From a virus, in the IMG/VR virus record IMGVR_UViG_3300032516_000009, positions 32,001-96,000 of that record: a stretch of 64,000 nucleotides of DNA; one strand, given 5' to 3'. A model generated the notes under the pieces. It was not told the DNA's origin. It was given only the letters and a program-made list of their open reading frames with translations, and made no database searches. Position numbers and translations under genes: made by a program. Each line of letters starts with the position of its first letter. Position 1 is the stretch's first letter. This document shows, piece by piece, positions 37,970 through 53,104 of this stretch.

Positions 37970-38104
37970 TGGGGGATTGGGACTCGAACCCAGTGCTTGT
38001 TAGGACCACATATTGCTTCCTTTAATGGGAAGCGAGGAATGGACCTGGGAGCTTGCGCTCCAGCTTGTATGGCTGGCGAGGGAACCACACCCTCTGTATC
38101 CCCC
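37970..38104 (-). ncRNA. oversized tRNA-like RNA G1 (135 nt) with the Y-like module in the variable region
   Basis: Acceptor GGGGGAT/ATCCCCC, D arm, CCAGC-CATACAA-GCTGG, inserted module, T arm TGGG-TTCGAGT-CCCA. Confidence 0.8.
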
Positions 38105-38108
38105 GAAC

Positions 38109-38234
38109 GAGATCAGAGATTGGTTGAACGTTCGAGACGTGGTACTTTTGGTTTTGTGCTCCACATTGAGAGCACAAAGGCTGACTTAGACAGTTAGCTT
38201 GTTAGCACCACAAATTGAACGCCCAACTGATCTC
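38109..38234 (-). ncRNA. Y-RNA-like RNA A
   Basis: GGCGTTC AATTT GTGGTGCT AACAAGC...AGTACCAC GTCTC GAACGTT. Confidence 0.75.
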
Positions 38235-38268
38235 CTACTCCGTGACGTGATCTGTCCGTCGCTTTTCC

Positions 38269-38297
38269 ACTTTACACTTGAAAAACCCAAGTGTCAA
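38269..38297 (-). promoter_or_regulatory. promoter upstream of RNA A/G1
   Basis: TTGACA-17 nt-TAAAGT, the latter preceded by TG. Confidence 0.55.
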
Positions 38298-38308
38298 GTG
38301 TCAAAAAA

Positions 38309-38436
38309 TTTGGTGTCCGAGATGCGGCGCTGGACTTGGTTGCAATACCGGGTTTGAACCGGCGACTTTCTGTACCAAAACAGATGCCCTACCAACTGGG
38401 CGAATTGCGTGTTAGCACCGCTAGTTGGACACCGAA
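38309..38436 (-). ncRNA. Y-RNA-like RNA B with an embedded Pro-like cloverleaf
   Basis: GTGTCC AACTA GCGGTGCT AACAC + D, anticodon and T arms + ACCA + AGCGCCGC ATCTC GGACAC. Confidence 0.8.
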
Positions 38437-38534
38437 AATATTTTACACCGAGACTGGTTTATTACGCAAGGTGTAGCGAAATAGTGGAATCGAATAAATT
38501 CCCAACATTTCGACTTTTAATTCTTGCTACAGGT

Positions 38535-39149
38535 ATGAAAATGATTACTCTAGTATGTACGGGATGTGGGAAAAATTTCCAACGAAGAGAATCGTGTTAC
38601 AAAGCAAACATAGCTCGTGGAAGAATTAAAGTTTACTGTTCGAGAATTTGTCTAGGGGAGTCTCAACGGGTTCCGATAGCTGAGATTGAATGTAAAAACT
38701 GTGGAAAAATAATAGATAGATTAAATAAAGATGTGAACAGGTCTAAAAATCATTTCTGTTCGATATCATGTTCTACAGTATATAACAATAAACATCGTCA
38801 ACATAAATTATATACATGTGCATGCGGTACTAAATTCATTAGACATAATGGAAGTATAAAATGCAACAAATGTATAGAAACATGGAAAAATAGATTGTTA
38901 AAACGAGAAAAATCTAAAGTCGCTAAACGCGATATTACAGGCAGTGCAAGAATAATAGCAAAAAAACATGGGTTACTAAAACAATGTGCAGTTTGCAGTT
39001 ATTCTCTACATGTAGACGCGTGTCATCGTAGATCAATAAATTCATTCCCCGACAATACACTAATTCAAGAAATCAATAATGTAAAAAATCTAATTGGATT
39101 GTGTAAAAATCATCATTGGGAATTTGATCATGGACATCTTACAATTTAG
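38535..39149 (+). CDS. Zn-ribbon-rich HNH endonuclease, paralog of 37346
   Basis: HVDACHR...NLIGLCKNHHWEFD. Confidence 0.8.
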   Translation: MKMITLVCTGCGKNFQRRESCYKANIARGRIKVYCSRICLGESQRVPIAEIECKNCGKIIDRLNKDVNRSKNHFCSISCSTVYNNKHRQHKLYTCACGTKFIRHNGSIKCNKCIETWKNRLLKREKSKVAKRDITGSARIIAKKHGLLKQCAVCSYSLHVDACHRRSINSFPDNTLIQEINNVKNLIGLCKNHHWEFDHGHLTI

Positions 39150-39225
39150 TAGCGGAGGTGAGATTCGAACTCACGATCTCTTGGTTATGAGCCAAGTGGG
39201 AACGACCAGACTTCCCTACCCCGCA
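39150..39225 (-). tRNA. tRNA-Met(CAT), initiator-like
   Basis: Loop CTCATAA, unpaired 1:72. Confidence 0.85.
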
Positions 39226-39230
39226 ATATT

Positions 39231-39346
39231 TGGAATTGAACGTTCGAGGTGCGACGCTTTTGGGAGTCGGTCATCATTGTGTGACCGACTGTATATTCCT
39301 TATGAGGGAATGCGTGTTAGCGCCGCGAATTGAACATCCATTTCCA
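39231..39346 (-). ncRNA. Y-RNA-like RNA C
   Basis: GATGTTC AATTC GCGGCGCT AACACGC...AGCGTCGC ACCTC GAACGTT. Confidence 0.75.
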
Positions 39347-39355
39347 CTTTACATT

Positions 39356-39898
39356 TTAGCACCGATTGTTTACGGTGACAAGAATTGATCGCCAAGGCTG
39401 GGATCGCCATTCCCCAAATATCCCCATCTCTGTTACCAGTTTTATTACCGGTATGAACTGTTTCCAGGCTTCATACGGCATATCATTGCGAACGTAATTA
39501 CACCTAATGCATGCCGGTATAACATTATCTTTCATATGAGCCTTATTATTGTCTATCCTATCTAGTGTTATACGTAAAGATTTGCTTCCGCAGTATGAAC
39601 ACCCGTTCTGAATCAGATCGCGAACGAACTCGCGGTCTAAATCATTACCCTGCCTACCATGTCTCTGATCCGACTGTTTACTATCGTGCACAATAAACGT
39701 ATGCGGATATTTTTGTCGTCTTAGGGACCTATACTCTTTTTCCTGTATGGCAGTCTTATTTTTCTGACATTTATTGCATACTCTAGCTCTATGGCCATTC
39801 CATATACGACCACGTGACCCTGTAGGTCTAAGCCAACTCTTGGGAAACGCAGTAATCTTTTTCTTTAGAAGACATTTAGTACAGACTCTATGATCCAT
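39356..39898 (-). CDS. HNH-type endonuclease
   Basis: CSYCG..TLDRIDNNKAHMKDNVIPACIRCN. Confidence 0.85.
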   Translation of the reverse strand: MDHRVCTKCLLKKKITAFPKSWLRPTGSRGRIWNGHRARVCNKCQKNKTAIQEKEYRSLRRQKYPHTFIVHDSKQSDQRHGRQGNDLDREFVRDLIQNGCSYCGSKSLRITLDRIDNNKAHMKDNVIPACIRCNYVRNDMPYEAWKQFIPVIKLVTEMGIFGEWRSQPWRSILVTVNNRC

Positions 39899-39928
39899 AC
39901 TAACAAGCACTATGAAAGGTTTAGCACA

Positions 39929-39956
39929 TGCTTGTTAGGTCTCCCTGATGGACGCG
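39929..39956 (-). ncRNA. partial Y-like module (5' strand only), followed by an HNH gene
   Basis: GCGTCC ATCAG GGAGACCT AACAAGC; partner strand not found. Confidence 0.45.
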
Positions 39957-39961
39957 AGTAG

Positions 39962-40088
39962 CGGGGTGTTCCGGATTCGAACCGGTGCTTGTGAGGACTA
40001 CCGAGTGCTTCCTTAATAGAAGCGAGGAGCAATCCTGGTTGTTCCCAATTGCAAATAACTGGTGGGCTGCCATTGCCCTGTACACCCC
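39962..40088 (-). ncRNA. oversized tRNA-like RNA G2 (127 nt) with the Y-like module in the variable region
   Basis: Acceptor GGGGTGT/ACACCCC, D arm GGGC/GCCC, module AGGATTGC TCCTC GCTTC...GAAGC ACTCG GTAGTCCT CACAAGC, T arm. Confidence 0.8.
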
Positions 40089-40091
40089 AAA

Positions 40092-40180
40092 ATGTAAACG
40101 TTCGAGACGCGGTGCTTGGTTTCAGCTTCTTTACCTTAGCAGGGTATTGCTTGTTAGCACTGCAATTTGAACGCCTACAT
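40092..40180 (-). ncRNA. Y-RNA-like RNA D
   Basis: GGCGTTC AAATT GCAGTGCT AACAAGC...AGCACCGC GTCTC GAACGTT. Confidence 0.75.
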
Positions 40181-40201
40181 CAAACTTTACATTGAGCCAT
40201 A

Positions 40202-40777
40202 TTAAATGCGAGTGGCCCCGCCCGGGAAGATTTGATATCCGATTTTCTTCCCGTGTTCGATGAAAATCTGAACTGACATGGCCATATATGACGAAACTAT
40301 TGAAATAAATGGCAAATGTTCCCCATTTTCACAGGTAGCAGCCCCGGCATTAGTTTCATCGTCAATTTGGAAGCTTTCGTCCCAAATGGATCGACCGAAT
40401 TGTCCATCGGCAGCCAGCGCGCCATGAAGACATGGAACCTTATTCTGGCGTGCGAAATTTTGCACCAGCCTTCGAGCTTCACCATTATCTAAACAATCAA
40501 CGATAAGATCTGACTGTGAAAGAAGTTGACTATCGTTATTAGCTACGAGTTTGTGAGGAATTACCTGAACCTTCAAACCAAATAGAAATTGCAGTGTCTG
40601 CTGAAGTGCCACCACCTTGGCCTTCCCGACGGAAGATTTGGCGTGGAACTGGGACATTACGTTCTTCTGTTCAATTCTATCAAAGTCAATAACGCGGATG
40701 GACACGCCTAGATTCCGCAGCAAAGGAACCAAATGAGAACCCAGTGCCCCAACACCAACGATCGTTACAATCTTCAT
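40202..40777 (-). CDS. ThiF/E1-like adenylyltransferase
   Basis: IVGVGALGS, IDFDRIEQKN..SQ, VDCLDN.EAR, candidate catalytic Cys in ATCE. Confidence 0.9.
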   Translation of the reverse strand: MKIVTIVGVGALGSHLVPLLRNLGVSIRVIDFDRIEQKNVMSQFHAKSSVGKAKVVALQQTLQFLFGLKVQVIPHKLVANNDSQLLSQSDLIVDCLDNGEARRLVQNFARQNKVPCLHGALAADGQFGRSIWDESFQIDDETNAGAATCENGEHLPFISIVSSYMAMSVQIFIEHGKKIGYQIFPGGATRI

Positions 40778-41010
40778 TTATTCTTCTTGGTCTTTATGCG
40801 TTTACGAACATTAGTCTTTCCGCGCCACCGGCAATTTTGTTCGTGTTTCTTAGCGCTCTTCTCAGCAGATTCCTGGGTGAAGAACTTATAACTGGATCCC
40901 CAATAAGCTTCACATACCCCATCGAAATCTGCTGAGAAGCACCCGTGTCGATTGTCTCGCCCATCACAGCGGTATTCCCAATCACGGGTCTTTTTACGTG
41001 CAGTAGCCAT
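40774..41010 (-). CDS. small basic Cys/His protein
   Basis: GAGG before ATG; stop overlaps the E1 start. Confidence 0.5.
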   Translation of the reverse strand: MATARKKTRDWEYRCDGRDNRHGCFSADFDGVCEAYWGSSYKFFTQESAEKSAKKHEQNCRWRGKTNVRKRIKTKKNK

Positions 41011-41020
41011 GAATTCCTCG

Positions 41021-41389
41021 TTACCCCCGGAGCCGGCGCCGACGTCCGAATGGCGTCTTAGGTCGAAGCATGCAACGTGCGACAGGCACGGCCTCATTCG
41101 CCGGGAACCTATCGACCACGAAATCCGTGAAATCCGCATTCGGATCGGCCGGAATTCCCGGCACGCTCCCAGCACGTACAGCCTCGGTCGCCCAACGCTT
41201 AATGTCTGCGTCACTGGCGTCCCTAGTTACTGGATCGGGCAAATCCCCGTTGGCGCCATTGTAGGTTACGTTGAGTCTGGCCATGTCGGCTTCCATGACC
41301 TCAGCAACCATACTCATGCGCTCTCCAGGCTCCCCAACTAGGTCAACAGCCGCCTCAATCCTATCAACCGCGTCGTTTCGATCTACCAT
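41021..41389 (-). CDS. putative ubiquitin-like (beta-grasp) protein
   Basis: Strong SD; ends with a beta strand then RPKTPFG-RRRRLRG; lies in the E1/JAB operon. Confidence 0.65.
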   Translation of the reverse strand: MVDRNDAVDRIEAAVDLVGEPGERMSMVAEVMEADMARLNVTYNGANGDLPDPVTRDASDADIKRWATEAVRAGSVPGIPADPNADFTDFVVDRFPANEAVPVARCMLRPKTPFGRRRRLRG

Positions 41390-41435
41390 TTGCGTCTCCT
41401 CCTGTTATTTACACCGGAAGTCTTGAAATTTACGA

Positions 41436-41648
41436 CTATCGTGAATGAATATATTCTTTCCACATATCATCCCAATAATCAGCGTATTCTTTTGAACAAT
41501 CTTCGCAGAACCAATATCCCGCACCAACCTCTTCATCAGCATAGGCCGTAAGAGACGGGTGAAACGCTATCTCTTTCGTATCGCCACATCGTTCACATTC
41601 GACTTCCATCACCTCAGTAACTATGGCAATGGCGTCTGTGGCATTCAT
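41436..41648 (-). CDS. small Zn-finger protein
   Basis: CERC, CEDC. Confidence 0.55.
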   Translation of the reverse strand: MNATDAIAIVTEVMEVECERCGDTKEIAFHPSLTAYADEEVGAGYWFCEDCSKEYADYWDDMWKEYIHSR

Positions 41649-42361: not shown

Positions 42362-42567
42362 TATTCGTTCTGTATTGATCTAACAATTTTTACATCACAT
42401 TCATCATACATATTTTCAACTGGTTCTCCTATAATCGTTAAATCAATTTCTGGAGATAACCCCGGTCTTGTCATAATGTAACTGCCGCATCTTTTACATG
42501 TCCATTCATCGTACATGGGGGTAGCACCCTTGTGCACTCTGGTTGATTTTTCCCATTCATGTGCCAT
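42361..42567 (-). CDS. small Zn-ribbon protein, paralog
   Basis: HEW...WTCKRCG...ECD...IQNE. Confidence 0.6.
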   Translation of the reverse strand: MAHEWEKSTRVHKGATPMYDEWTCKRCGSYIMTRPGLSPEIDLTIIGEPVENMYDECDVKIVRSIQNE

Positions 42568-42937
42568 ATGAGGCTTTACGTAGATCGTCGACCCAATCTA
42601 AACAATCACTCAATTCCGATTCCAGATTTGATACTTGATAATCACATTTATCCGGTCCTTTCCACATAACTAATGAAACATAATACTGATTGATTATCCA
42701 CCAGTTGAGTCTTCGACCTAAAGCCGCTTCGACTGCGGCAAAAGTCGTAATATCTTCCCAGGAAGGCCCAACAGGCCCGCTACCTGGATGGGAATGAGCA
42801 AATCCATCCAAGGTGTGCCTGAATTTCCAAAATTGATTCCATAATTCAGTACTATCTGGTAGACATGAAGTACTGCGATCCGGTGGTATGTGCCAGTATA
42901 ATGGTTCACCTTTACTAATTATTACACCTGCTTCCAT
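42557..42937 (-). CDS. JAB/MPN+ metallo-isopeptidase
   Basis: N-terminal Glu and HSHPGSGPVGPSWED (HxH...SxxD). Confidence 0.88.
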   Translation of the reverse strand: MEAGVIISKGEPLYWHIPPDRSTSCLPDSTELWNQFWKFRHTLDGFAHSHPGSGPVGPSWEDITTFAAVEAALGRRLNWWIINQYYVSLVMWKGPDKCDYQVSNLESELSDCLDWVDDLRKASYGT

Positions 42938-42993: not shown

Positions 42994-43779
42994 ATGAGAA
43001 AATGGCGAGACGATCAATTGATCGAAGCTGTTAAAGCATCCCGTAATATATCAGAAGTAATAACTAGATTATATGATACGGAATGCGGTGGTCATTTTAA
43101 AACAGTTTGGAAATATGTTAACCAATTACAATTAGATGTATCTCATTTTTCTAAGATCCCGGGTCCTACCGGTGTTGAATACCAGCCACAATATACGGAT
43201 TCAATTCTATGTGAAAATAGTTCTATAAGTCATGGTACATTGCGTGCGTATTTATTACGTAATCGGATTATTCCATATACATGTATTCTATGTAATAATG
43301 ACGGATATCATAATGGCAACAGGTTAGTATTACAATTAGACCACATAAATGGCATTAAAAATGATAATAGGACAACGAATCTTAGATTTTTATGCCCAAA
43401 CTGTCATAGTCAAACGAAGACTTTCGGTAGAAAATCGCCAAAACCCTGCCCGAAGGGTCGAATTGGATCACTAAAATCGCCATGCCCACCACGCAGAAAA
43501 TTAGACCATTCAAAAATATTATCATTATATGAACAAGGCATAAGCATGCCAATTATAGCTCATCAATTTGGAGTTAAACACGCCGCTATACGGTACATAT
43601 GTAAAAAATCACATATGTATAAGGGCAGAAATGAACATAGAGACCTAGTTAATTTGCGTAAACAAGCAATCTCCATGGTAAACTCCGGTCACAGTAGACG
43701 CAAAGCAGCAAGTTTACTTGGGGCTTCTAATAATTCAGTGGCTCGATGGATACGTGAACAAAATCACATCACTTCATAG
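42994..43779 (+). CDS. HNH homing endonuclease with HTH domains
   Basis: LQLDHINGIKNDNRTTNLRFLCPNCHSQT. Confidence 0.9.
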   Translation: MRKWRDDQLIEAVKASRNISEVITRLYDTECGGHFKTVWKYVNQLQLDVSHFSKIPGPTGVEYQPQYTDSILCENSSISHGTLRAYLLRNRIIPYTCILCNNDGYHNGNRLVLQLDHINGIKNDNRTTNLRFLCPNCHSQTKTFGRKSPKPCPKGRIGSLKSPCPPRRKLDHSKILSLYEQGISMPIIAHQFGVKHAAIRYICKKSHMYKGRNEHRDLVNLRKQAISMVNSGHSRRKAASLLGASNNSVARWIREQNHITS

Positions 43780-43961: not shown

Positions 43962-44939
43962 TTACCAATCCTCGTCTTCATCTCTATCATCGTCCACGTG
44001 TCTGAACACATGAAGTACCCTCTTGTGTTCCGCTTCTCTAATTACACCCGGAAGGGATTCTAGCGTGAAGTACGCATCCCCTCTCTCCCCAGTGTGGTGA
44101 TCAGTTAAACAAATACCAGCTTCAATTATCTGAAGAGTGCGTGCATCACACGTACATTCGAATCGTCTTTGGTTTATCCTGAATGTAACAACCATTTCAC
44201 CACGATTGTATGAACATCGGTGATCTAAGTACTCAGCGCCTCCAATAGCCAGAGCCGCTCGAGCCGCTTCCCCGAAATCGACTTGTGCCATGGTGCGACG
44301 ACCAGCGGCATCACCAAGCTGTTTGACTAATTGCGCTCGCCGTTCTTCCTTTGCTCGCCGTTCTTCCTCTTCTACTCGGCGTCGTTCGGCTTCAGCTCGG
44401 CGTCGTTCGGCTTCAGCACGATACCAAGTCTCCATTCTGAACGCTGCATCGAGTGCTGGCGAAACACCTTGAACATCATTGACAGAATCAGCTCTGTTTT
44501 GATATGCTTCTGCGACTTTCTCTTCCGGTCCTAATGGCATTTCTTGATTTTGGTAGATCAGCGGGCCATCGTCACAAACTCGACCGGCAGCAATACGAAC
44601 AAACCTATCGAGTCCAGGTTCGATCAAATAAACTTGTTCTGAACAACTGATAAGTTGTGTGGGATCCGGGTCAACTCGAACATTATCGAGGACAATCCGA
44701 TCTCCAATTAGATACCCATGAACTACGGACCTTAGGATTTCTGGTATTGCGTCAGCAGTTCCTTTAACCGTAGCTTTGCGAGCGGAAATTTTGAAACTAA
44801 ACCATCCATGCTCGCGGGGTAATGCCCCGTCAATATGCCATACACGATCGATAGATCGGAGAGATCTACTTCCAGTCCAAGGAAGAACTGTAACTTCTTC
44901 GTTAGATTGTAGTAGATCTCTCCAACCCATCACTGTCAC
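43962..44939 (-). CDS. putative E2-like (UBC-fold) domain protein with central coiled coil
   Basis: C-terminal AGICL...FTLESLPGVIRE resembles the UBC GxICL catalytic motif; translationally coupled to the TROVE gene. Confidence 0.5.
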   Translation of the reverse strand: MTVMGWRDLLQSNEEVTVLPWTGSRSLRSIDRVWHIDGALPREHGWFSFKISARKATVKGTADAIPEILRSVVHGYLIGDRIVLDNVRVDPDPTQLISCSEQVYLIEPGLDRFVRIAAGRVCDDGPLIYQNQEMPLGPEEKVAEAYQNRADSVNDVQGVSPALDAAFRMETWYRAEAERRRAEAERRRVEEEERRAKEERRAQLVKQLGDAAGRRTMAQVDFGEAARAALAIGGAEYLDHRCSYNRGEMVVTFRINQRRFECTCDARTLQIIEAGICLTDHHTGERGDAYFTLESLPGVIREAEHKRVLHVFRHVDDDRDEDEDW

Positions 44940-46798
44940 GCAGCAAATGATGGCTTAGCTAGAAGATCCGTTTGTAGGATCGTCTCGACCAAAGATACAC
45001 GGTGAACCGTGCGACTTACAGTGGTCTTCGACTGCCCGACCGGAGTAGACGCTACGAGCGCCCTGATCGTACGCGGAATCGCGTACACATCCTCGAACGT
45101 CTTTTCATCGATCAAGAAGCATGGGATCTTCAGCTGATCTGCCGTGTCCTGAACCGCCCTGTAGTGAGGATTGTTCCTGACTTTGACAAATCCGAATGCC
45201 ATCGGGTTCAGGCCCGACGCATTCACCGCTGCAGTGAATGGCCCCGCTTCCTCATCCCCAATGAACATAAATAGTGTGTCTTCGTTTGGAAGAGGCTGAT
45301 ACTTCATCAAGGCCCTGACGCCAGCGCCGTAATCGGTCCCGCCGCCCGCGGAAATACCACGGAAGGCGTTCTCGACCCCGGCAGCGGAGGGATGCTTCAA
45401 GGGGAGTTCACGTCCTGCCGTATTGAAGACGGAGATGTGAACCTTATCCGGTGGAAACGCCTGGAGAAACTTAGCTACGTGGCTCTTCGCCTGGACAATA
45501 GCATCCTCCATGGACCCGGAAATATCAACCATGAAGTAGACTCGGATTCCCTTCATGACTTCCTCTACCGCCTTTTGAACGGCGGTGTCAGCAGCCTCTT
45601 GAAGTTTTTCCTTCGTCTGCTTGTTCTTCACCCTGGATGCGATATTGGCAGCGCGCATGTCATCTGCAGACTTAACTGCCTTTTCCCAACGGTTCTTGAC
45701 TTCCTGTACCTTCAGTAGGCCAAGCTCTTCAAGTGTTGGCGTTGCGATGATCAAGTCCTTGTCAGACATGGCCCCGGATTCGATGGCCGCTGTGACGATG
45801 GCTCGAGTGAGTCCAACGCTCTTCGGCACCAGTCCGACAATGCGCTTATACCCGGGCTTCTCCTTGATGATTTGTTCGCAGATCTGCATCTCATTAAGAT
45901 CGCCCCAGTTGTCCGCCGCCTTCACCGCTTGTCCGATGGCCATCGTGCGACGACCATCCTTGGCCTGGGACTGCTTCCAGCGCAAAGCTTCAAAGAATTG
46001 CGGCATGATAGGCTTGTAACCTACCCGACGCGCCAATTCCATGACAGTCGTGCGGAATCCCGCCTTCATAAGCCCCCGCATCAGATTCGGATTGGCCTCT
46101 CGGTGTTCCAGCCATTTCGTTACAACCTTTGGCCATCGACCGAGGAACGGATGACGAGCCGACTTGCCGAAACCAAGCTCGCGATTGATCTCGGCCACTT
46201 GAGGCATGGACAAGATATCGTGAATACGCAGAAGTAACTTGGGATTTAGGTCCTTACCGTCACGACGAATGATCAGCGCCATGGCTTCTCCGACGTCTCT
46301 ATAGTCTTCGTCATGAAATGCGACGGTGTCACCATCCTTAACCGGATCGCCCTTACGGCTCTGTACAAGCATCAATGCCGCAAGAACGACTTTGAGATCC
46401 CGATGCTCCTGAGCGAAAGCGTAAGACGCCCATCGAGCGGAGAACTCGTTGTCAAGTCGCCAAACCTCAACGACTTGGCGATACATCCAGGTAACAACTT
46501 CAGGAAAGAGTCCTGCCGGTCGGTAGTCACCGACCTTCCTGCGGTCTTCGGTACGAATAGTATTATCGGCCCAAAGAGTACCAATCTTGACCTTGTTTGT
46601 CTTTCGTCCAACCTTGGTCAGTTGATACACAACCTTTTGACCGTTCTCCTCCTTATGGGTTACGGGAGTCCATTTCACTCCAACAACCGCAGTGGGATCG
46701 GGAACCACGATCCCCGGCCTTCCGTGATATGCATGATCCACATATGACAAAATGGACTGAATAGTGCGCTCGGCTGGTCCTAAATTCTCATTTTGCAC
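44936..46798 (-). CDS. divergent Ro60/TROVE-vWA protein
   Basis: Helical N-domain with TROVE-like FRTTVMELARRVGYKP and DLIIATPTLEELGLL; C-terminal vWA MIDAS VDISGSM, GGGTD, FIGDEE; GTG start after AGGAG. Confidence 0.7.
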   Translation of the reverse strand: MQNENLGPAERTIQSILSYVDHAYHGRPGIVVPDPTAVVGVKWTPVTHKEENGQKVVYQLTKVGRKTNKVKIGTLWADNTIRTEDRRKVGDYRPAGLFPEVVTWMYRQVVEVWRLDNEFSARWASYAFAQEHRDLKVVLAALMLVQSRKGDPVKDGDTVAFHDEDYRDVGEAMALIIRRDGKDLNPKLLLRIHDILSMPQVAEINRELGFGKSARHPFLGRWPKVVTKWLEHREANPNLMRGLMKAGFRTTVMELARRVGYKPIMPQFFEALRWKQSQAKDGRRTMAIGQAVKAADNWGDLNEMQICEQIIKEKPGYKRIVGLVPKSVGLTRAIVTAAIESGAMSDKDLIIATPTLEELGLLKVQEVKNRWEKAVKSADDMRAANIASRVKNKQTKEKLQEAADTAVQKAVEEVMKGIRVYFMVDISGSMEDAIVQAKSHVAKFLQAFPPDKVHISVFNTAGRELPLKHPSAAGVENAFRGISAGGGTDYGAGVRALMKYQPLPNEDTLFMFIGDEEAGPFTAAVNASGLNPMAFGFVKVRNNPHYRAVQDTADQLKIPCFLIDEKTFEDVYAIPRTIRALVASTPVGQSKTTVSRTVHRVSLVETILQTDLLAKPSFAA

Positions 46799-47429
46799 TT
46801 GCTTTCTCCTGTTTTCGTTTGTGTGTACGTATCTTATGACAGTTGGCACATACTACGTCACACTTTTTAATTTCATCAAGTAATTGTCTTAATGATCCTT
46901 TGAATATGAGCGTACTAACCTTAGTTATTTTGGTTGAAGGATCACGATGGTCGAAATCCATGACATATGTTGGGTACGTTTCTTTACAGTCCATGCATGG
47001 CTGTTCTTTAAATGTTTCAACTACATGTTTTAACTTCGCTACCGTTCTAGCCTTTGACAAATATTCACCACGTTTATTTAGATACTCAGCCTTTCTTTTG
47101 GAAGATTGACATTTTCGACATCTAATGCTGCGTCTACCAAGTGACTTTCCATTCCAGCCGAATTCAATTGTGAGTTTCTTACACCCACAGTCACAACATT
47201 TAGTATATTTTGGTTCGATAATGCCAGATTTCACTGCTTCTCGACATTTTTGTCTATAACGTTCTTCCCGAGCCTTAACAACGTTTAAATGTGATGCACG
47301 GTATTCTCTCCTGTAAACAATAGAACATTGTTTACAGCGAGCATGTCTTTCTTGCCTTGCTTTCGATCTCCAATGGAATTCAGATTCCGATTTTAAAATT
47401 TTACATTGGATGCATTGTTTATTAACCAT
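46788..47429 (-). CDS. HNH homing endonuclease
   Basis: PCMDC...MDFDHRDP...KCDVVCANCHKIRT. Confidence 0.88.
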   Translation of the reverse strand: MVNKQCIQCKILKSESEFHWRSKARQERHARCKQCSIVYRREYRASHLNVVKAREERYRQKCREAVKSGIIEPKYTKCCDCGCKKLTIEFGWNGKSLGRRSIRCRKCQSSKRKAEYLNKRGEYLSKARTVAKLKHVVETFKEQPCMDCKETYPTYVMDFDHRDPSTKITKVSTLIFKGSLRQLLDEIKKCDVVCANCHKIRTHKRKQEKASAK

Positions 47430-47616: not shown

Positions 47617-47621
47617 GATAG

Positions 47622-48154: not shown

Positions 48155-48169
48155 GTTTTTATATCACAG

Positions 48170-48325: not shown

Positions 48326-48398
48326 TCGGACTGGCCGGTCACGATCCGGCGACCTCGACGTCCCCGACGTCGCGCTCTTCCAACTGAGCTACAGCCCG
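48326..48398 (-). tRNA. tRNA-Pro(GGG), C33
   Basis: Loop TCGGGGA, C1:G72. Confidence 0.85.
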
Positions 48399-48458
48399 GA
48401 AATCTGTTTATTTGAACTGTTTATATTGTATTGTTAATATAACCGATTGGAGGTTCGA

Positions 48459-49166: not shown

Positions 49167-49177
49167 GCCACTGCCCG
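49104..49177 (-). tRNA. tRNA-Pro(TGG)
   Basis: Loop TTTGGGT. Confidence 0.9.
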
Positions 49178-49184
49178 GAAAATT

Positions 49185-49502: not shown

Positions 49503-49503
49503 A

Positions 49504-49839
49504 TTATCGCTCGATAAAATTTGCTAATTCGGGTTTTGGTTCATCTGTATCCGTACATTTTATGCTAATAGCATCGCATTCACGACATTTAAAATGTCTG
49601 TGAACACCCGACAACGGACATCGTTTACGCCAGAACCAAAAACCTTTTACTATAACACGTTTGGTTGGGTAACAAGCTTTACCTTCGCTAGTATCACCAA
49701 CCCAGTTCGTAAACCGTTTACCGCACACTGGGCAATAAGACGCGGAATATCCGTCTTTTTTGACAACATAATATGTGAAAATATTAGCTAAAGGTTTCTC
49801 GTATTCGACAATAGCTTGTGTGCGATAGGGCACTGCCAT
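49504..49839 (-). CDS. small Zn-binding protein
   Basis: CPVC, HRHFKCREC. Confidence 0.55.
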   Translation of the reverse strand: MAVPYRTQAIVEYEKPLANIFTYYVVKKDGYSASYCPVCGKRFTNWVGDTSEGKACYPTKRVIVKGFWFWRKRCPLSGVHRHFKCRECDAISIKCTDTDEPKPELANFIER

Positions 49840-49857
49840 GTTTCACATTACAATCAG

Positions 49858-50473
49858 TGCCCCTGGCGGGATTCGAACCCGCGAAATTCAGACACCTAAT
49901 TGGATCGAATTCCATACGCAGTATGTTTCCGGTGACAATTTGAACAAATCAATTCACATTTAGAAAGTTCCTTTACAATATTATCCCAACTCTGACGCAT
50001 TAAATTAGTCCAGTCCATTTCCTTTTCTTTTATATGGTGGAAATCATAAATGCATGGGTCATCTACAATATTACAACAGACGCATTTTCCGCCTAGAAAT
50101 GCAACTGCTTTTGCTTTAACTTTTTTCCATCGATTTGCTTGATATTCATCCTGGCAAACTCTACAATACGCACATAAATATGTTCGTTTTGAATTGTAGA
50201 ATCTGAATTCCGTAGCAGGTTTAGTATCTTTACATTTGGCACAATGTTTTGGTTTCATCCCTTCATAATATGGCGCTAATTTAGCCCGAGCCAGACGGAC
50301 TTTATTATTCTGAGCACAAACTCCACCACAAAATTTTCCTCTTGCCGATCTATTACGTTTACGAAGTACTTTTAAATCAAATTCTTGTTTGCATTCGATA
50401 CATATCATACACTACTTTAGTCATAGAAAGACTAAAGATGTCTCAGGTGCTCGAACCTCCGAGCGTCGTGGGC
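49858..50473 (-). pseudogene. tRNA-like gene split by an HNH ORF
   Basis: 5' piece 50473-50437 (GCCC, D arm GCTCG/CGAGC); 3' piece 49896-49858 (T arm GCGGG-TTCGAAT-CCCGC, CAGGGGCA). Confidence 0.55.
49896..50408 (-). CDS. HNH homing endonuclease
   Basis: LGGKCVCC...YDFHH...KCELICSNCHRKH. Confidence 0.88.
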   Translation of the reverse strand: MICIECKQEFDLKVLRKRNRSARGKFCGGVCAQNNKVRLARAKLAPYYEGMKPKHCAKCKDTKPATEFRFYNSKRTYLCAYCRVCQDEYQANRWKKVKAKAVAFLGGKCVCCNIVDDPCIYDFHHIKEKEMDWTNLMRQSWDNIVKELSKCELICSNCHRKHTAYGIRSN

Positions 50474-50479
50474 AAAAAA

Positions 50480-50821
50480 TCACGGCATTTCAGCAGAAAT
50501 TGTAACGATGCCGTCCGTAGCTTCAAAATACACGTTCGTCTCTAGATCTTCGACAAACTTAGCATCGGTATCAAGATTAAATACAACATTATTGTTATCG
50601 ACAATTTGTTCTATCTGATATTCACCAGTCGAATAGCCTTTGCTCTCTATAATAACTTTGGCCACCTTTATTGCGTCATCAGCACTCATAGTAGAAGGGT
50701 GCTCGACTCCCATGAAAATAACATTTTCACCAGTTTCGAACCCGAGATCCTCGTCTTCATCAATTGCATGGGCTGCAACACGCATGGCTATCTTGACGAG
50801 ATCCATACTAATTGTTTCCAT
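50480..50821 (-). CDS. acidic hypothetical protein with KIAMRVAA leader
   Basis: Start trimmed to lie below the tRNA genes. Confidence 0.55.
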   Translation of the reverse strand: METISMDLVKIAMRVAAHAIDEDEDLGFETGENVIFMGVEHPSTMSADDAIKVAKVIIESKGYSTGEYQIEQIVDNNNVVFNLDTDAKFVEDLETNVYFEATDGIVTISAEMP

Positions 50822-50835
50822 AACAGACTTATAGG

Positions 50836-50904
50836 TCGGACTGGCCGGACTCGAACTGGCGACTGGTCCCGAACCACGCGCGCTACCAACTGCGCTACAG
50901 CCCG
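50836..50904 (-). tRNA. tRNA-Pro(CGG) with about 4 nt deleted at the anticodon stem/variable loop (possible pseudogene)
   Basis: CGTGG-TTCGGGA-CCA then directly GTC and the T arm; 69 nt. Confidence 0.65.
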
Positions 50905-50949
50905 TGAATCGCGGAACATTCCGCGATAAACAGCTTTGACTGACGTCGG

Positions 50950-51022
50950 TGCCCCAGGCCGGATTTGAACCGGCGACGCCTACCTCTTCAGGGTAGCGCT
51001 CTACCAACTGAGCTACCGGGGC
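50950..51022 (-). tRNA. tRNA-Phe(GAA)
   Basis: Loop CTGAAGA. Confidence 0.92.
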
Positions 51023-51071
51023 ATATTCGAACTAAATTCGAATATTAGACTTGTTGTAAAATTGGTTCGAT

Positions 51072-51803
51072 ATGGGGTATCGAACTTGGACAGATAAAGA
51101 TCTAGAGTTAGCGGTTAAATCAAGTAAGACCAAATCAGATGTTATTCGTAAACTTGGACTAAAATCCAATAGTTCTGGTAATTTTCAGGTTATCGACATC
51201 CATATTAAACGACTCGGGTTGGATATAGCACATTTTCACGAAGTCGTATTAGGAAAACCTAGCAAACCGAAACAGATTGAGGATTTATTAATTAAAAACA
51301 GTACTTATACAAATACTGGAAAACTCAAGTCTAGATTAATTAGAGCTGGTCTTCTTAGAGAAGAGTGTTATGAATGTAAAACAACCACATGGATGGGTAA
51401 AAAGTTATCTCTACAACTTGATCACATAGACGGTGATCGAAGTAATAATGAATTAAACAATCTTAGACTGTTATGCCCAAACTGTCACTCTCTAACATCA
51501 ACTTATTCCCGTTCCCGTACTAAAATGCAGAATAAACTATCAGAAAATAAGTGTAAATGCGGAGCATTTATTTGTCGGCGTTCCAGCATGTGTATTACTT
51601 GTGATGCTATTTCTAGGAGAGGTAAAAATTTAAAAATTAAATGGCCAAACATGAAAACATTACTAAATATGGTGGAAGAAGCCGGATATGTTCAAACTGG
51701 TGTTAAATTAGGCGTTTCGGATAGAGCCGTAAAAAAACATATTCTCAGAAATAACAAGAACTGCGCACCGAATGGCAGTAGAAAATTGACAGTACCCGAG
51801 TAA
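51072..51803 (+). CDS. HNH homing endonuclease with C-terminal HTH
   Basis: LQLDHIDGDRSNNELNNLRLLCPNCH. Confidence 0.9.
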   Translation: MGYRTWTDKDLELAVKSSKTKSDVIRKLGLKSNSSGNFQVIDIHIKRLGLDIAHFHEVVLGKPSKPKQIEDLLIKNSTYTNTGKLKSRLIRAGLLREECYECKTTTWMGKKLSLQLDHIDGDRSNNELNNLRLLCPNCHSLTSTYSRSRTKMQNKLSENKCKCGAFICRRSSMCITCDAISRRGKNLKIKWPNMKTLLNMVEEAGYVQTGVKLGVSDRAVKKHILRNNKNCAPNGSRKLTVPE

Positions 51804-51945
51804 TGAAGCTGGATCTTTGACAGATTGAATATCTGTTGCCTTACCATTAGGCTATTCCCCCATTGTAGAGTCAGATGACTCGGCGGGGAAAGGGGACTCG
51901 AACCCCCATAGCTTTTGCTTGTGAGCTTCACGTAGTGGGTACTGC
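51789..51945 (-). ncRNA. Y-RNA-like RNA F with a circularly permuted tRNA domain
   Basis: GCAGTACCC ACTAC GTGAAGCT CACAAGC, T arm, acceptor 3' strand, linker hairpin, acceptor 5' strand, D arm, anticodon arm, AGCTTCAT TACTC GGGTACTGT. Confidence 0.82.
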
Positions 51946-51947
51946 GG

Positions 51948-52021
51948 TGCTCCCACCGGGGTACGATCCCGGACCTCCAGCTTGAAGGGCTGGCCACCTA
52001 TCCGTTTAGTTAGATGGGAGC
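51948..52021 (-). tRNA. tRNA-Glu(TTC), C33
   Basis: Loop CCTTCAA. Confidence 0.85.
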
Positions 52022-52339
52022 AAGTTCGTTCCTACGGAACTCGTTACCGTCAATGATACGAACGAATGTTCGTTGAAAATCTTGTTTATTCCATACTATG
52101 ATATCTCCACCACAGCGAACATCAATCAAATTGTCACTAAATTTATCTCCCAAATCGGTTATATCGACTTTAACGCCAACTCTTAAAAACTTAAGAAATC
52201 GAGGATCCTTTTTCGCATCATTGCATTCAGATTGCGTCGGTGGTCGGATACGTACGTAATCGCCTAATTTAATAGAACCTTGCATGAAGGAGTTAATGAC
52301 TTCTTCACCATATCTTGACAGTCTGTCCCAATTTTTCAT
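52010..52339 (-). CDS. hypothetical protein
   Basis: 109-aa ORF. Confidence 0.5.
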   Translation of the reverse strand: MKNWDRLSRYGEEVINSFMQGSIKLGDYVRIRPPTQSECNDAKKDPRFLKFLRVGVKVDITDLGDKFSDNLIDVRCGGDIIVWNKQDFQRTFVRIIDGNEFRRNELAPI

Positions 52340-52380
52340 GAATTACTATACACGTAGAGCTTTGTTTGTACGGTCTAAGT

Positions 52381-52878
52381 ATGTCAGATCAAATTAAGTC
52401 ATGGGGACAATTGCTCAAAGAATGGATGGTAAATTTCTTTGGTGCGCTTTCTAAGAAGCCTAATATCATGCTACTTTACTTGCTTGTAATCGGAGGTTGG
52501 GTGTCAGGTATAAAAACCTGTAACAAGGTCGATGTTGCCTCCGGAAAAGCTGCTGGGGCAGCTCAAGTAGCAGATGAAGCTAAAAAGACAGCAGAGAACA
52601 AGGATTTAGAACAGGCATCTTATGAAGCTTTGGCTAAAACAATTGAAGATTTGCAGACGGAAAATGACGCGGTAAAAGAGCGGTTAGCGTTATTATTAGG
52701 ACATGTCCAGAATATCGCAGCTCAACCGCCAGCAGTTGTTAGAGTGTTTACTCCAACAGGACCCGTGTCAGCTGCGCCACCTATTAAGCCACCGTTAGTT
52801 CCATCTTCAATAATAGATGAACCGGCTCCGCCCCCACCTCCTGCATGGGAGACACTCAAATCTCAGATGAAGAAGTAG
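52381..52878 (+). CDS. membrane-anchored coiled-coil Pro-rich protein (spanin-like architecture)
   Basis: One TM segment, coiled coil, poly-Pro. Confidence 0.5.
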   Translation: MSDQIKSWGQLLKEWMVNFFGALSKKPNIMLLYLLVIGGWVSGIKTCNKVDVASGKAAGAAQVADEAKKTAENKDLEQASYEALAKTIEDLQTENDAVKERLALLLGHVQNIAAQPPAVVRVFTPTGPVSAAPPIKPPLVPSSIIDEPAPPPPPAWETLKSQMKK

Positions 52879-52929
52879 AGCCCGCTGCGACTTACGAAAT
52901 CACTGCTCTACCTGCTGAGCTATGTGGGC
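52879..52929 (-). pseudogene. T-armless tRNA-Thr(CGT)-like sequence (51 nt)
   Basis: D and anticodon arms nearly identical to the tRNA-Thr at 28645, joined directly to GCGGGCT. Confidence 0.65.
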
Positions 52930-52933
52930 AAAA

Positions 52934-53104
52934 GCTGAGTATCCGAGGAGAAGGACGTTGTCTTTACTCAAGACGGATTGAAAGATCCGTTGCCTATTCC
53001 ATTCGGCCACTCCGGCAGATTTAGAGTCTAAAGACTCGGAGCCGGAGGCAGGAGTCGAACCTGCATTTTGTGCGTGTTTGTCCATCGAATCGGATACCGA
53101 TAGC
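52934..53104 (-). ncRNA. Y-RNA-like RNA E with a circularly permuted tRNA domain
   Basis: GTATCC GATTC GATGGAC AAACACGC, T arm, CTCCGGC, linker, GCCGGAG, D, anticodon and variable arms, GTCCTTC TCCTC GGATAC. Confidence 0.82.

What the first reader, a model, noticed from the sequence alone, without database searches (positions are those of the whole stretch)
37970..53104. Candidate new system: phage Ro60/TROVE protein, a ubiquitin-like conjugation cassette and a repertoire of tRNA-mimic Y-like RNAs
Seen: one minus-strand stretch carries TROVE-vWA (46798), a coupled GICL-containing E2-like protein, a JAB peptidase, a Ubl candidate ending in Gly and an E1/ThiF enzyme. About 20 nt after the E1 stop a run of related structured RNAs begins (D, G2, partial, C, B, A, G1), with two more (E, F) upstream. 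Established: Ro60 rings bind the stem of Y RNAs, which tether effector proteins (PNPase in Deinococcus); bacterial YrlA RNAs mimic tRNA; E1/E2/JAB/Ubl sets conjugate proteins. Inference: Ro holds the constant stem while the variable tRNA-like heads act as baits or adaptors. This would bring tRNA-binding host proteins (for example anticodon nucleases), or damaged RNA, to the Ubl machinery, making the RNA an E3-like specificity factor. No RING/E3 protein is evident. The protein cassette alone may have been noted in comparative genomics; I cannot check that.
Basis: partly seen in the sequence, partly recalled or inferred. Interest (0 to 1): 0.95.

Follow-up and report, generated by a model that had tools for sequence, protein, structure and literature searches.

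The report
Ro60-like RNA particle with ubiquitin-like module
A huge phage, its relatives and myxobacterial chromosomes share one gene set that joins a divergent Ro60-type RNA-binding protein and a new family of tRNA-shaped small RNAs to a small ubiquitin-like protein with its activating and trimming enzymes, a link between RNA handling and protein tagging that I found in no paper I could search.

Summary
On the minus strand lie a 620-aa vWA protein whose best fold matches are Ro60/TROVE proteins. Profile comparison gives 84% directly and 95% through distant relatives. Next come a 325-aa OB-like/coiled-coil/Cys protein (no E2 fold found), an intact JAMM peptidase and an ~85-aa ubiquitin-like protein ending in invariant PKTPFG. 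Last is a 191-aa ThiF/E1 enzyme, predicted to hold that tail in its adenylation site.

These five genes keep their order in about 43 of 48 huge-phage loci and in Corallococcus, Myxococcus and Cystobacter chromosomes.

Twenty-seven bases after the E1 stop begins a real RNA family. It has a 7-bp helix, a 5x5 loop (NNCUC), an 8-bp helix and ACANGC, topped by variable heads: permuted tRNA (YrlA-like), ordinary tRNA-like, or short hairpins. Covariation is strong (29 of 32 pairs). Linkage to the genes holds in three different arrangements.

Best reading: a Ro/Y-RNA-type particle coupled to an E2-less Ubl system. How the two connect is inferred. The E3-like bait idea is untested.

This scan has noted the same system before on other DNA (at least 34 genomes).

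The parts
44936..46798 (-). Ro60-like protein (620 aa): N-terminal beta domain (aa 20-95), helical repeat (aa 99-415), C-terminal vWA domain with a complete MIDAS motif (DxSxS...T...D)
   Evidence: Pfam VWA_2 E 8e-8. AF2 model pLDDT 81.6. Foldseek top PDB hits are TROVE/Ro60 entries 9kop, 2nvo, 9l5y and 1yvr, E 4e-7 to 1e-5 over 513-577 columns, but TM only 0.25-0.34. BFVD top hits are TROVE/Ro-like phage proteins. hhalign against phage Ro60: 84% directly, 95% through distant homologues. More than 1600 homologues found.
43962..44939 (-). 325-aa partner protein. Its start overlaps the stop of the Ro-like gene. Two OB-like beta barrels, a long coiled coil (aa 161-208) and a C-terminal alpha/beta domain with invariant CxC...Cx3H
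   Evidence: No Pfam, PHROG or NCBIfam family. AF2 model pLDDT 81. Only weak OB/S1/Mpa-interdomain matches, Z 5.1 or less, and no E2 match. More than 1200 homologues at about 60% identity. Syntenic in phages and bacteria.
42557..42937 (-). JAB/JAMM metallopeptidase (126 aa)
   Evidence: Prok-JAB E 0.002, below the Pfam cut-off. The E2...H-S-H-x7-S-x2-D residues are conserved in 41 homologues. Syntenic.
41021..41389 (-). Ubiquitin-like protein. The core is aa 30-115 and ends in invariant RPKTPFG. The window copy has a 7-aa tail to be trimmed
   Evidence: Alignments: ORFs stop at the Gly or carry variable tails of 1 to about 50 aa. The complex model with ThiF scores 0.85 against a best control of 0.37, and tail residues 109-115 lie in the adenylation site.
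40202..40777 (-). Minimal E1-like adenylating enzyme (ThiF family, 191 aa) with invariant Thr148-Cys149
   Evidence: Pfam ThiF E 5.9e-26. PDB MoeB E 2e-10, with Uba4, TcdA, SAE2 and Cap2 also matched. NCBIfam and PADLOC E1 hits. Invariant columns listed.
40097..40175 (-). Starts 27 nt after the E1 stop
   Evidence: CM R1 gives 28.7 bits.
39960..40090 (-). Oversized tRNA-like RNA (G2). It has acceptor, D, anticodon-like and T arms, and a long extra arm ending in CACAAGC before the T arm
   Evidence: Sequence and fold.
39895..39958 (-). Partial module copy: CCUAACAAGCA paired with its complement as a hairpin
39239..39338 (-). It is followed by tRNA-Met at 39149-39225
38312..38433 (-). A T-run follows
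   Evidence: ARAGORN calls 'tRNA-???'. Rfam tRNA 41.8 bits.. R1 gives 35.6 bits.
38127..38223 (-).
37970..38100 (-). Oversized tRNA-like RNA (G1) with the module motif inside a long extra arm
51791..51943 (-). Class P module (E). The head is a permuted tRNA in the order T arm, closed acceptor stem, D arm, anticodon-like arm
   Evidence: R1 gives 107 bits. Rfam YrlA gives 23.9 bits, below threshold.
52938..53098 (-). Class P module (F), same architecture as E
   Evidence: R1 gives 96 bits.

Best explanation
This is a conserved cassette for a Ro60/Y-RNA-type ribonucleoprotein that is genetically wired to an E2-less ubiquitin-like (Ubl) system.

Shown:
- Five genes keep order and strand across huge phages, a second phage clade and myxobacterial chromosomes. 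They are the Ro60-like vWA protein, an OB/coiled-coil/Cys protein, a JAMM peptidase, a Ubl ending in Gly, and a ThiF-type E1.
- A covarying RNA family is always encoded inside or beside this set. It has a 7-bp helix, a 5x5 internal loop with NNCUC, an 8-bp helix and ACANGC, below a tRNA-shaped or short head.

Inferred mechanism:
1. The Ro-like protein, perhaps together with the OB-fold partner, holds the constant basal helix.
2. The head displays a tRNA elbow and a variable anticodon-like arm to tRNA-binding factors. This parallels how YrlA is thought to act.
3. The JAMM peptidase trims the Ubl to its PFG end.
4. The E1 adenylates that Gly, with Cys149 probably taking it as a thioester.
5. The Ubl is then attached, without a canonical E2, to a component or client of the particle. 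This resembles archaeal SAMPs or Thermus TtuB. The vWA MIDAS site is a candidate docking point.

In the phage, the particle most likely acts on the tRNA pool during infection, for example by decoying or handling tRNA-directed host factors or damaged RNAs.
For: Synteny of the five genes:
- Kept in about 43 of 48 IMG/VR loci.
- Ro-like, p325-like and ThiF-like genes are linked in a distant phage clade.
- The same order holds in bacterial genome records, including complete Corallococcus chromosomes.

Ro60 likeness:
- Foldseek top hits in PDB and BFVD.
- hhalign 84% (E 7.7e-6) directly. Through bridging homologues it is 95% (E 4e-8), and these are themselves 100% related to the family.
- Complete MIDAS motif.

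Ubl/E1/JAB:
- ThiF E 6e-26.
- Invariant PKTPFG end with variable tails.
- Conserved JAMM residues.
- The complex model scores 0.85 against a best control of 0.37. That mark was reached by 58 of 80 solved complexes and 2 of 110 mismatched pairs. Partner pLDDT is 91 and the runs agree in at least 95% of contacts. The pass may reflect likeness to solved MoeB-MoaD or ThiF-ThiS complexes.

RNA family:
- 66 modules found against 3 in shuffled sequence.
- 29 of 32 pairs show compensatory changes. 93% of cells are paired, against 65% when shuffled and 33-46% when slid.
- 45 of 51 modules lie within 3 kb downstream of ThiF, a zone holding 12% of the sequence.
- All 11 module-bearing loci found from the RNA side lie in records that encode the Ro-like protein.
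- The RNA sits 23 nt upstream of the Ro-like gene in a distant phage. It sits 100-250 nt upstream of it in myxobacteria.
- Class P heads have the YrlA order (T arm, closed acceptor stem, D arm) and give the only non-tRNA Rfam signal, YrlA at 24-30 bits.
Against: - No Pfam TROVE hit, even at E 10.
- The N-terminal domain alone against phage Ro60 reaches only E 0.099.
- TM-scores to Ro60 are low, 0.25-0.34. Ro60 did not reach the top 50 of the VIA list, which vWA domains filled.
- The RNAs fail Rfam's YrlA threshold of 69 bits. They lack the GNCGAAN0-1G Ro-binding motif described in PMC4201824, and their ends leave from the variable-region position rather than the anticodon stem.
- No E2 or E3 was found, so conjugation itself is not shown.
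- The Ubl ends in FG, not GG.
- No binding, expression or conjugate data exist.
- Many class N heads score as ordinary tRNAs, 44-59 bits.
Confidence: 0.5

Rival explanations
1. Sulfur-carrier reading. The Ubl/E1/JAMM triad makes a Ubl thiocarboxylate, as with ThiS, MoaD, CysO, TtuB or Urm1. This donates sulfur for thiolation of tRNAs or of the tRNA-like RNAs. The Ro-like and OB-fold proteins present the RNA substrate.
For: - No E2 was found.
- The E1 is a minimal 191-aa enzyme whose best family hits are ThiF/MoeB adenylyltransferases.
- JAMM trimming of a tailed carrier is the CysO/Mec+ and QbsE/QbsD pattern (own knowledge).
- The cassette sits in tRNA arrays.
- The TtuB/TtuC, SAMP2/UbaA and Urm1/Uba4 systems link Ubls to tRNA thiolation (PMC5349211, PMC2948915).
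Against: - The carrier ends in FG rather than the GG of known sulfur carriers.
- No PP-loop thiolase (PF01171, the TtuA/Ncs6/TilS type) is present in a complete 436-kb relative.
- No rhodanese or desulfurase is part of the conserved set.
- It gives no role to a Ro-like ring or to short-headed RNAs.
Confidence: 0.17
2. Processing-signal reading. The shared helix-loop-helix is a splice or processing signal, analogous to the bulge-helix-bulge motif of archaeal and algal permuted, split and intron-bearing tRNAs. Class P RNAs would be circularised, G1/G2 spliced and class N trimmed, so the end products are working tRNAs. The adjacent proteins would be the processing machinery.
For: - The same module closes permuted tRNAs (class P), flanks normal-order tRNAs (class N) and sits inside the extra arm of G1/G2.
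- Several anticodon loops are canonical, with varied anticodons.
- Some acceptor linkers begin with ACCA.
- A complete relative encodes RtcB, the ligase used in tRNA splicing.
- Permuted pre-tRNAs are known in algae and one archaeon, as cited in 10.1101/312249.
Against: - U33 is present in only about 10 of 19 seven-nucleotide loops, and some loops have 6 or 8 nt.
- Many acceptor stems are closed by 2-4-nt loops with no discriminator or CCA.
- About a fifth of modules have short heads with no tRNA body.
- The motif is a 5x5 loop, not a 3-4-3 bulge-helix-bulge.
- No endonuclease domain was recognised in the conserved set.
- RtcB lies 260 kb from the cassette.
Confidence: 0.1
3. Coincidence reading. 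The RNAs are only odd members of the phage tRNA arrays that surround the genes, and the protein set works on something unrelated to them.
For: - The cassette is embedded in tRNA arrays in the window and in Rctr197k.
- Extra module copies lie far from the cassette: E and F in the window, and a cluster at 99-100 kb in the complete 436-kb relative.
Against: - 45 of 51 modules lie in the 12% of sequence just downstream of ThiF.
- In myxobacterial chromosomes and Verrucomicrobiota MAGs the RNA lies directly beside or between the cassette genes.
- All 11 RNA-side hits lie in records that carry the Ro-like gene.
Confidence: 0.04

Closest known systems
Bacterial and phage Ro60 (Rsr) with Y RNAs: Salmonella and Mycobacterium YrlA (Rfam RF02553; PMC4201824; 10.1101/312249), Deinococcus Yrn1-PNPase, mycobacteriophage Bxz1-type Ro-like proteins, Thermus phage phiLo Ro60 (PMC12135203; PDB 9l5y)
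   Same: - A helical-repeat domain plus a vWA/MIDAS domain.
- RNA genes encoded beside the protein gene.
- RNAs built from a long basal stem formed by the 5' and 3' ends, plus a tRNA-like domain with the T arm 5' of the D arm and a closed acceptor stem.
- Conserved T and D loops (tRNA elbow).
- Several RNA paralogues per genome.
   Different: - No Pfam TROVE match, and an extra N-terminal beta domain.
- The RNAs score 24-30 bits against the Rfam threshold of 69.
- They keep a full anticodon-like arm and leave the tRNA body at the variable-region position.
- They carry other conserved motifs (ACANGC and NNCUC, not GNCGAAN0-1G).
- They come with three kinds of head.
- The cassette carries Ubl, E1, JAMM and OB-fold genes instead of RtcB/RtcA next to the Ro gene.
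E2-less prokaryotic Ubl systems: archaeal SAMP/UbaA/HvJAMM1 and Thermus TtuB/TtuC with a JAMM peptidase (PMC4895103, PMC2948915)
   Same: - A small Ubl with a C-terminal Gly.
- A MoeB/ThiF-type E1 with a conserved Cys.
- A JAMM peptidase.
- No recognisable E2 or E3.
- A functional link to tRNA biology.
   Different: - The Ubl ends in FG, not GG, and often needs its tail trimmed.
- The E1 is only 191 aa.
- The system is fixed to a Ro-like protein, an OB/coiled-coil/Cys protein and dedicated RNAs.
- No thiolase partner is present in the set.
Bacterial Ubl-conjugation defence systems: Bil (BilABCD) and CBASS Cap2/Cap3 (PMC10097602)
   Same: - An E1 domain related to Cap2 (PDB 7tsx E 4e-5, PADLOC E1-E2 models E 5e-17).
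- A JAB peptidase.
- A C-terminal Gly as the attachment point.
   Different: - No E2 domain was found here.
- The system is present in phages as well as bacteria.
- It is coupled to RNAs and a Ro-like protein.
- The PADLOC hits are to the E1 part only.
Circularly permuted and intron-bearing tRNA genes with bulge-helix-bulge signals (Cyanidioschyzon, some archaea; cited in 10.1101/312249)
   Same: - The T-arm half is encoded before the D-arm half.
- The acceptor stem is closed by a linker.
- The RNA ends pair in a conserved helix-loop-helix.
- The same motif is used in permuted and in 'intron' form (G1/G2).
   Different: - The motif is a 5x5 loop between a 7-bp and an 8-bp helix.
- About half of the anticodon loops are non-canonical.
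- Short-headed copies exist.
- No splicing endonuclease was recognised.

Membership tests
Ro60 / TROVE (Pfam PF05731) | Match to the TROVE profile | tested here: not met
   No hit by hmmscan. No hit in the whole record even at E 10. None in 10 distant homologues. The same profile finds Bxz1 Ro at 78 bits.
Ro60 / TROVE (Pfam PF05731) | Helical-repeat domain followed by a vWA domain with a MIDAS motif, collinear with Ro60 | tested here: met
   AF2 model shows helices at 99-415 and vWA at 418-585. MIDAS residues D425, S427, S429, T488 and D515 are invariant. hhalign to phage Ro60 is collinear: 84% (E 7.7e-6) directly and 95% (E 4e-8) through bridging homologues.
Ro60 / TROVE (Pfam PF05731) | Closed ring fold like solved Ro60 structures | tested here: inconclusive
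   Foldseek ranks Ro60/TROVE entries first in PDB and BFVD. However, TM is 0.25-0.34 and rmsd 12-14 A. pTM of the model is 0.50. The VIA list was filled by vWA domains.
Ro60 / TROVE (Pfam PF05731) | Binds Y RNA stems and misfolded RNA ends | not testable with these tools
   Needs pull-down or EMSA.
YrlA Y RNA (Rfam RF02553) | Reaches the Rfam gathering score (69 bits) | tested here: not met
   23.9 bits on E in the window. 30.1 and 28.1 bits on class P copies in L012 and L017.
YrlA Y RNA (Rfam RF02553) | T arm 5' of the D arm, with a closed acceptor-like stem between them and conserved elbow nucleotides | tested here: met
   Alignment A5 and its consensus structure. GGTTCGANTCC and the TGG of the D loop are invariant or nearly so.
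YrlA Y RNA (Rfam RF02553) | The 5' and 3' ends pair in the stem that replaces the anticodon arm and carries GNCGAAN0-1G on the 5' strand (PMC4201824) | tested here: not met
   A complete anticodon-like arm is present, and the basal helices leave between it and the T arm. The conserved motifs are ACANGC and NNCUC.
YrlA Y RNA (Rfam RF02553) | Encoded next to a Ro60 gene | tested here: met
E1 / ThiF-MoeB adenylyltransferases (PF00899) | Profile match above the cut-off, with an intact nucleotide-binding motif | tested here: met
   91.5 bits against a cut-off of 28.1. G8, G10, G13, D31, D94, D97 and R102 are invariant, as are T148 and C149.
JAB/JAMM peptidases (PF14464) | Profile match above the cut-off | tested here: not met
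   18.2 bits against a cut-off of 25.
JAB/JAMM peptidases (PF14464) | E...HxHx7Sx2D metal-site motif | tested here: met
   Present in the window protein and conserved in 41 homologues.
Ubiquitin-like beta-grasp modifiers/carriers | Conserved C-terminal Gly, exposed directly or after trimming, that enters the E1 active site | tested here: met
   Invariant G115 in RPKTPFG with variable tails. In the complex model the tail contacts ThiF residues 10-12, 95-99 and 147-149, with a score of 0.85 against 0.37. This is a prediction, and it may rest on likeness to solved MoeB-MoaD-type complexes.
Ubiquitin-like beta-grasp modifiers/carriers | Beta-grasp fold | not tested
E2 / UBC superfamily | UBC fold with a catalytic Cys | tested here: inconclusive
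   No UBC match for the 325-aa model in Foldseek PDB or the VIA wide search. The best match for the C-terminal part is an RWD-domain chain at Z 4.4, rmsd 3.5, 72 aligned residues. The C-terminal domain was not folded alone. The conserved Cys residues form CxC...Cx3H.
Sulfur-carrier systems (ThiS/MoaD/TtuB type) | GG C-terminus and a partner thiolase or sulfurtransferase | tested here: not met
   The terminus is FG. No PF01171 protein is present in a complete relative. Other thiolase families were not searched.

The most novel reading that the evidence does not exclude
The RNA is the specificity element or the substrate of the Ubl system. In one form, the tRNA-shaped heads recruit chosen tRNA-binding proteins to the particle for Ubl tagging, making this RNA-guided protein tagging. 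In the other form, the E1-made Ubl-adenylate is passed to a hydroxyl of the tRNA-like RNA, as an aminoacyl-tRNA synthetase would do. That would create a protein-RNA conjugate.
Probability: 0.15. Interest if true: 0.95.

Novelty: new variant of a known kind. Interest (0 to 1): 0.8.

Why it matters
Ro60/Y-RNA particles and prokaryotic ubiquitin-like systems are each known, but I found no description of them fused into one conserved unit.

- The cassette is abundant. The Ro-like protein alone has more than 1600 homologues at 90% clustering.
- It spans huge phages and cultured myxobacteria, so it can be studied at the bench in Corallococcus or Myxococcus.
- It defines a new RNA family with interchangeable tRNA-like heads on a constant handle.

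If the link is functional, it would give Y-RNA biology a biochemical output. It could also reveal how an E2-less Ubl system chooses its targets. The effector of YrlA-type RNAs is still unknown.

Tried and rejected
Searches that found nothing:
- Sequence searches for TROVE: Pfam, PHROGs, NCBIfam, PADLOC, and PDB by single sequence and by profile.
- E2 reading of the 325-aa protein: Foldseek PDB and the VIA wide search gave only weak OB-like matches. The ESM Atlas gave no usable hit and holds no model.
- The VIA second look at the Ro-like model was saturated by vWA domains and says nothing on the helical part.

Expression:
- No RNA holder is listed among the sequencing runs. Only sediment DNA runs hold the stretch.

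Literature:
- Searches with Ro60, TROVE, ThiF, JAB, huge phages, permuted tRNA and tRNA-like found no description of this cassette.
- The jumbo-phage survey PMC7824862 mentions TROVE proteins only with RNA repair.
- Burroughs and Aravind 2016 (NAR 44:8525) is not held, so it could not be checked.

Tools and limits:
- RtcB and PF01171 are absent from the window's own record, but that record is only 26% complete.
- The promoter and terminator scan was not above background.
- The megablast search against the phage collection found nothing. The only relative by protein was Virus Rctr197k.

Functional permuted tRNAs were considered and ranked low because of non-canonical loops and tetraloop-closed acceptor stems.

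Full report
**Setting**

The window is bases 32001-96000 of a 110,922-bp IMG/VR virus record that CheckV rates 26% complete, so it is part of a huge phage. It carries 38 tRNA genes, ribonucleotide reductase, an intein-bearing RecD2-type helicase and many HNH endonuclease genes. The only relative in the phage collection is Virus Rctr197k, which has the same vWA gene, a ThiF-like gene downstream and flanking tRNA arrays.

**The proteins**

The minus strand encodes the following, in order:
- an HNH gene (46788-47429)
- a 620-aa vWA protein (44936-46798)
- a 325-aa protein whose start overlaps the preceding stop (43962-44939)
- an HNH gene on the opposite strand (42994-43779)
- a 126-aa JAB protein (42557-42937)
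- five small ORFs
- a 122-aa protein (41021-41389)
- a 191-aa ThiF protein (40202-40777)

tblastn against 48 related IMG/VR loci shows that the vWA, 325-aa, JAB, 122-aa and ThiF genes recur in the same order and strand in about 43 of them. The small ORFs between them do not recur. The conserved unit is therefore five genes.

**Is the vWA protein a Ro60?**

Sequence methods see only the vWA domain, and the Pfam TROVE profile finds nothing in the record even at E 10.

The AlphaFold model (pLDDT 81.6) has a small beta domain, a helical repeat at 99-415 and a vWA domain at 418-585. Foldseek ranks TROVE/Ro60 structures first in the PDB. These include 9kop, Deinococcus Rsr 2nvo, Thermus phage phiLo Ro60 9l5y, and Xenopus and human Ro60, with E 4e-7 to 1e-5 over 513-577 columns. 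It also ranks TROVE/Ro-like phage proteins first in BFVD. TM-scores are low, however, at 0.25-0.34.

For a sequence-level test I built a profile of seven canonical phage Ro-like proteins, Bxz1 and relatives.
- The family profile matches it at 84% probability (E 7.7e-6), collinearly through the last TROVE repeats and the vWA domain.
- The N-terminal part alone gives only E 0.099.
- A profile search of 1.84 billion representatives found distant 520-570-aa homologues that lack the beta domain.
- These are 100% related to the family (E 1e-43) and match phage Ro60 at 95% (E 4e-8).

I take the protein to be a very divergent Ro60 relative, with odds of about 0.8. It is not a member by the Pfam definition.

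**The 325-aa protein**

It has more than 1200 homologues at about 60% identity and no known family. The model (pLDDT 81) shows two beta barrels, a 48-residue coiled coil and a C-terminal alpha/beta domain.

Fold searches give only weak OB-type matches, with Z 5.1 or less (rmsd 4.2, 105 aligned) to the Mpa inter-domain. No UBC fold was found. Its invariant residues C262, C264, C277 and H281 look like a zinc site rather than a lone catalytic cysteine. The E2 reading is therefore not supported, although the C-terminal domain was never searched on its own.

**The Ubl triad**

- E1: ThiF is solid, at E 5.9e-26. MoeB, Uba4, TcdA, SAE2 and Cap2 appear among solved relatives. The nucleotide-binding residues and T148-C149 are invariant.
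- JAB: the protein falls below the Pfam cut-off but keeps E...HSHx7SxxD in all 41 homologues.
- Ubl: the 122-aa protein has an ~85-aa conserved core ending in invariant RPKTPFG. Homologous ORFs stop exactly there or run on for 1 to about 50 unrelated residues. The window copy has 7 such residues. This is the signature of a Ubl or carrier that a JAMM peptidase trims.
- Complex model: ThiF dimer plus Ubl core scores 0.85 against a best control of 0.37. That mark was reached by 58 of 80 solved complexes and 2 of 110 mismatched pairs. Partner pLDDT is 91 and the runs agree in at least 95% of contacts. Tail residues 109-115 touch the GxG loop, the DCLDN site and T148/C149. Because MoeB-MoaD-type complexes are solved, the pass may come from likeness. 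It supports the pairing but does not show it.

**The RNAs**

Twenty-seven bases after the ThiF stop a series of structured RNAs begins. Six window copies share one basal module:
- a 7-bp helix
- a 5-nt strand that usually starts with A
- an 8-bp helix
- N-ACA-N-GC
- a variable head
- the 8-bp return strand
- NNCUC
- the 7-bp return strand

A scanner for this architecture finds 66 copies in the window plus related loci and 3 in shuffled sequence. In the related loci 59 of 60 are on the operon strand.

There are three kinds of head:
- Class P, 24 copies. A permuted tRNA in the order T arm, 7-bp acceptor stem closed by a loop or linker, D arm, anticodon-like arm.
- Class N, 21 copies. A tRNA in normal order whose acceptor stem runs into the module. 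Rfam scores several of these as tRNA at 44-59 bits.
- Short hairpin heads, 12 copies.

G1 and G2 are tRNA-like RNAs that carry the motif inside a long extra arm.

An alignment of 23 class P copies gives a consensus with 32 pairs, of which 29 show compensatory changes. 93% of cells are paired, against 65% in shuffles and 33-46% when partners are slid. The three helices the scanner did not select for are 89-100% paired.

Class P copies are the only ones that draw a non-tRNA Rfam signal, YrlA at 24-30 bits against a threshold of 69. They differ from YrlA in three ways:
- They keep an anticodon-like arm.
- Their ends leave from the variable-region position.
- They lack the GNCGAAN0-1G motif (PMC4201824; 10.1101/312249).

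Only about 10 of 19 seven-nucleotide anticodon-like loops have U33. Several loops have 6 or 8 nt, and many acceptor stems are closed by tetraloops. This argues for mimics rather than decoding tRNAs.

**Linkage of RNA and genes**

- In the related phage loci, 45 of 51 modules lie within 3 kb downstream of ThiF, a zone that holds 12% of the sequence (binomial p about 1e-34).
- 25 of 33 loci are positive by the strict scanner. A covariance model adds L029, L030 and L033.
- Starting from the RNA side, an IMG/VR pattern scan gave 111 loci. 11 of these had a full module, and all 11 lie in records that encode the Ro-like protein.
- In a complete 436-kb relative, two model hits lie 66 and 215 nt after ThiF, and a second cluster lies at 99-100 kb.
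- In a distant phage clade the Ro-like gene is again followed by p325-like and ThiF-like genes. A class P RNA (63 bits) ends 23 nt before the Ro-like gene.
- In bacterial genome records, including complete chromosomes of Corallococcus exercitus and C. coralloides and assemblies of Myxococcus, Cystobacter and Citreicoccus, the same five genes occur in the same order at 38-41% identity. The RNA (50-77 bits) lies 100-250 nt upstream of the Ro-like gene.
- In a Verrucomicrobia MAG, three copies lie between the Ro-like and p325-like genes.

Three different placements with constant neighbours are strong evidence for one functional unit.

**Reading**

The best-supported explanation is a Ro/Y-RNA-type particle coupled to an E2-less Ubl system. 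The cassette and the RNA family are shown. That the Ro-like protein binds the basal helix, that the Ubl is conjugated, and what it is attached to are all inferred.

Rivals:
- A sulfur-carrier role for tRNA thiolation. A minimal ThiF and the absence of an E2 favour it. The FG end and the lack of a PF01171 thiolase in a complete relative count against it.
- A processing signal for permuted or intron-bearing tRNAs. RtcB is present in a complete relative, but loops and acceptor ends are often non-canonical.
- Coincidence with tRNA arrays. The bacterial synteny contradicts this.

**Earlier findings of this scan**

The same system was noted before on other DNA, in at least 34 genomes, with similar follow-up verdicts. 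One early report is marked 'part of it fell', without saying which part. I re-tested the main claims here: the five-gene synteny, presence in bacteria, the module definition, and the permuted heads.

I found no paper describing the cassette. One relevant survey, Burroughs and Aravind 2016, could not be read.

Noticed in passing
window 42994-43779 (+), 39356-39910 (-), 46788-47429 (-), 49896-50408 (-): HNH/endonuclease VII-type genes are scattered through the cassette and the tRNA arrays. One sits on the opposite strand between the 325-aa and JAB genes. Related loci show inserts of varying length at the same points.
   Followed up: partly
window 37765-37951 and 38945-39131: A 187-nt direct repeat at 72% identity. 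It probably marks the ends of two paralogous Cys-rich endonuclease-like genes that flank the RNA genes.
   Followed up: no
window about 21097 (-): One more copy of the GGUGCUAACAAG motif lies far from the others, next to the tRNA-Val/Leu block. The strict scanner did not call it a full module.
   Followed up: no
window 50836-50904 (-) and 49866-49883 (-): Rfam calls a tRNA at 50836-50904 (44 bits) that ARAGORN misses. A T-arm-like piece at 49866-49883 matches the tmRNA 3' end.
   Followed up: no
L017 15904-15996: A related 497-kb phage encodes a bacterial small SRP RNA (57.7 bits, above threshold) directly after its two class P modules.
   Followed up: no
L178-L204 (genome contigs): Contigs binned as Myxococcota, Polyangia, Kofleriaceae or Gemmatimonadota MAGs carry the cassette at 55-62% identity to the phage proteins. 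This is much closer than the 38-41% of true myxobacterial chromosomes. They may be phage contigs binned with their hosts, which would hint at a myxobacterial host range.
   Followed up: partly
window 1433-4750 (-): A RecD2-type helicase is interrupted by an intein with a LAGLIDADG endonuclease.
   Followed up: no
G001:C1:69276-70397: A complete 436-kb relative encodes RtcB RNA ligase (E 3e-125), 260 kb from the cassette. Canonical rsr-yrlA operons carry rtcB next door.
   Followed up: partly
L172 and L174: The distant phage clade has two ThiF-like paralogues downstream of the Ro-like gene. No JAB or Ubl was detectable with the family profiles.
   Followed up: no
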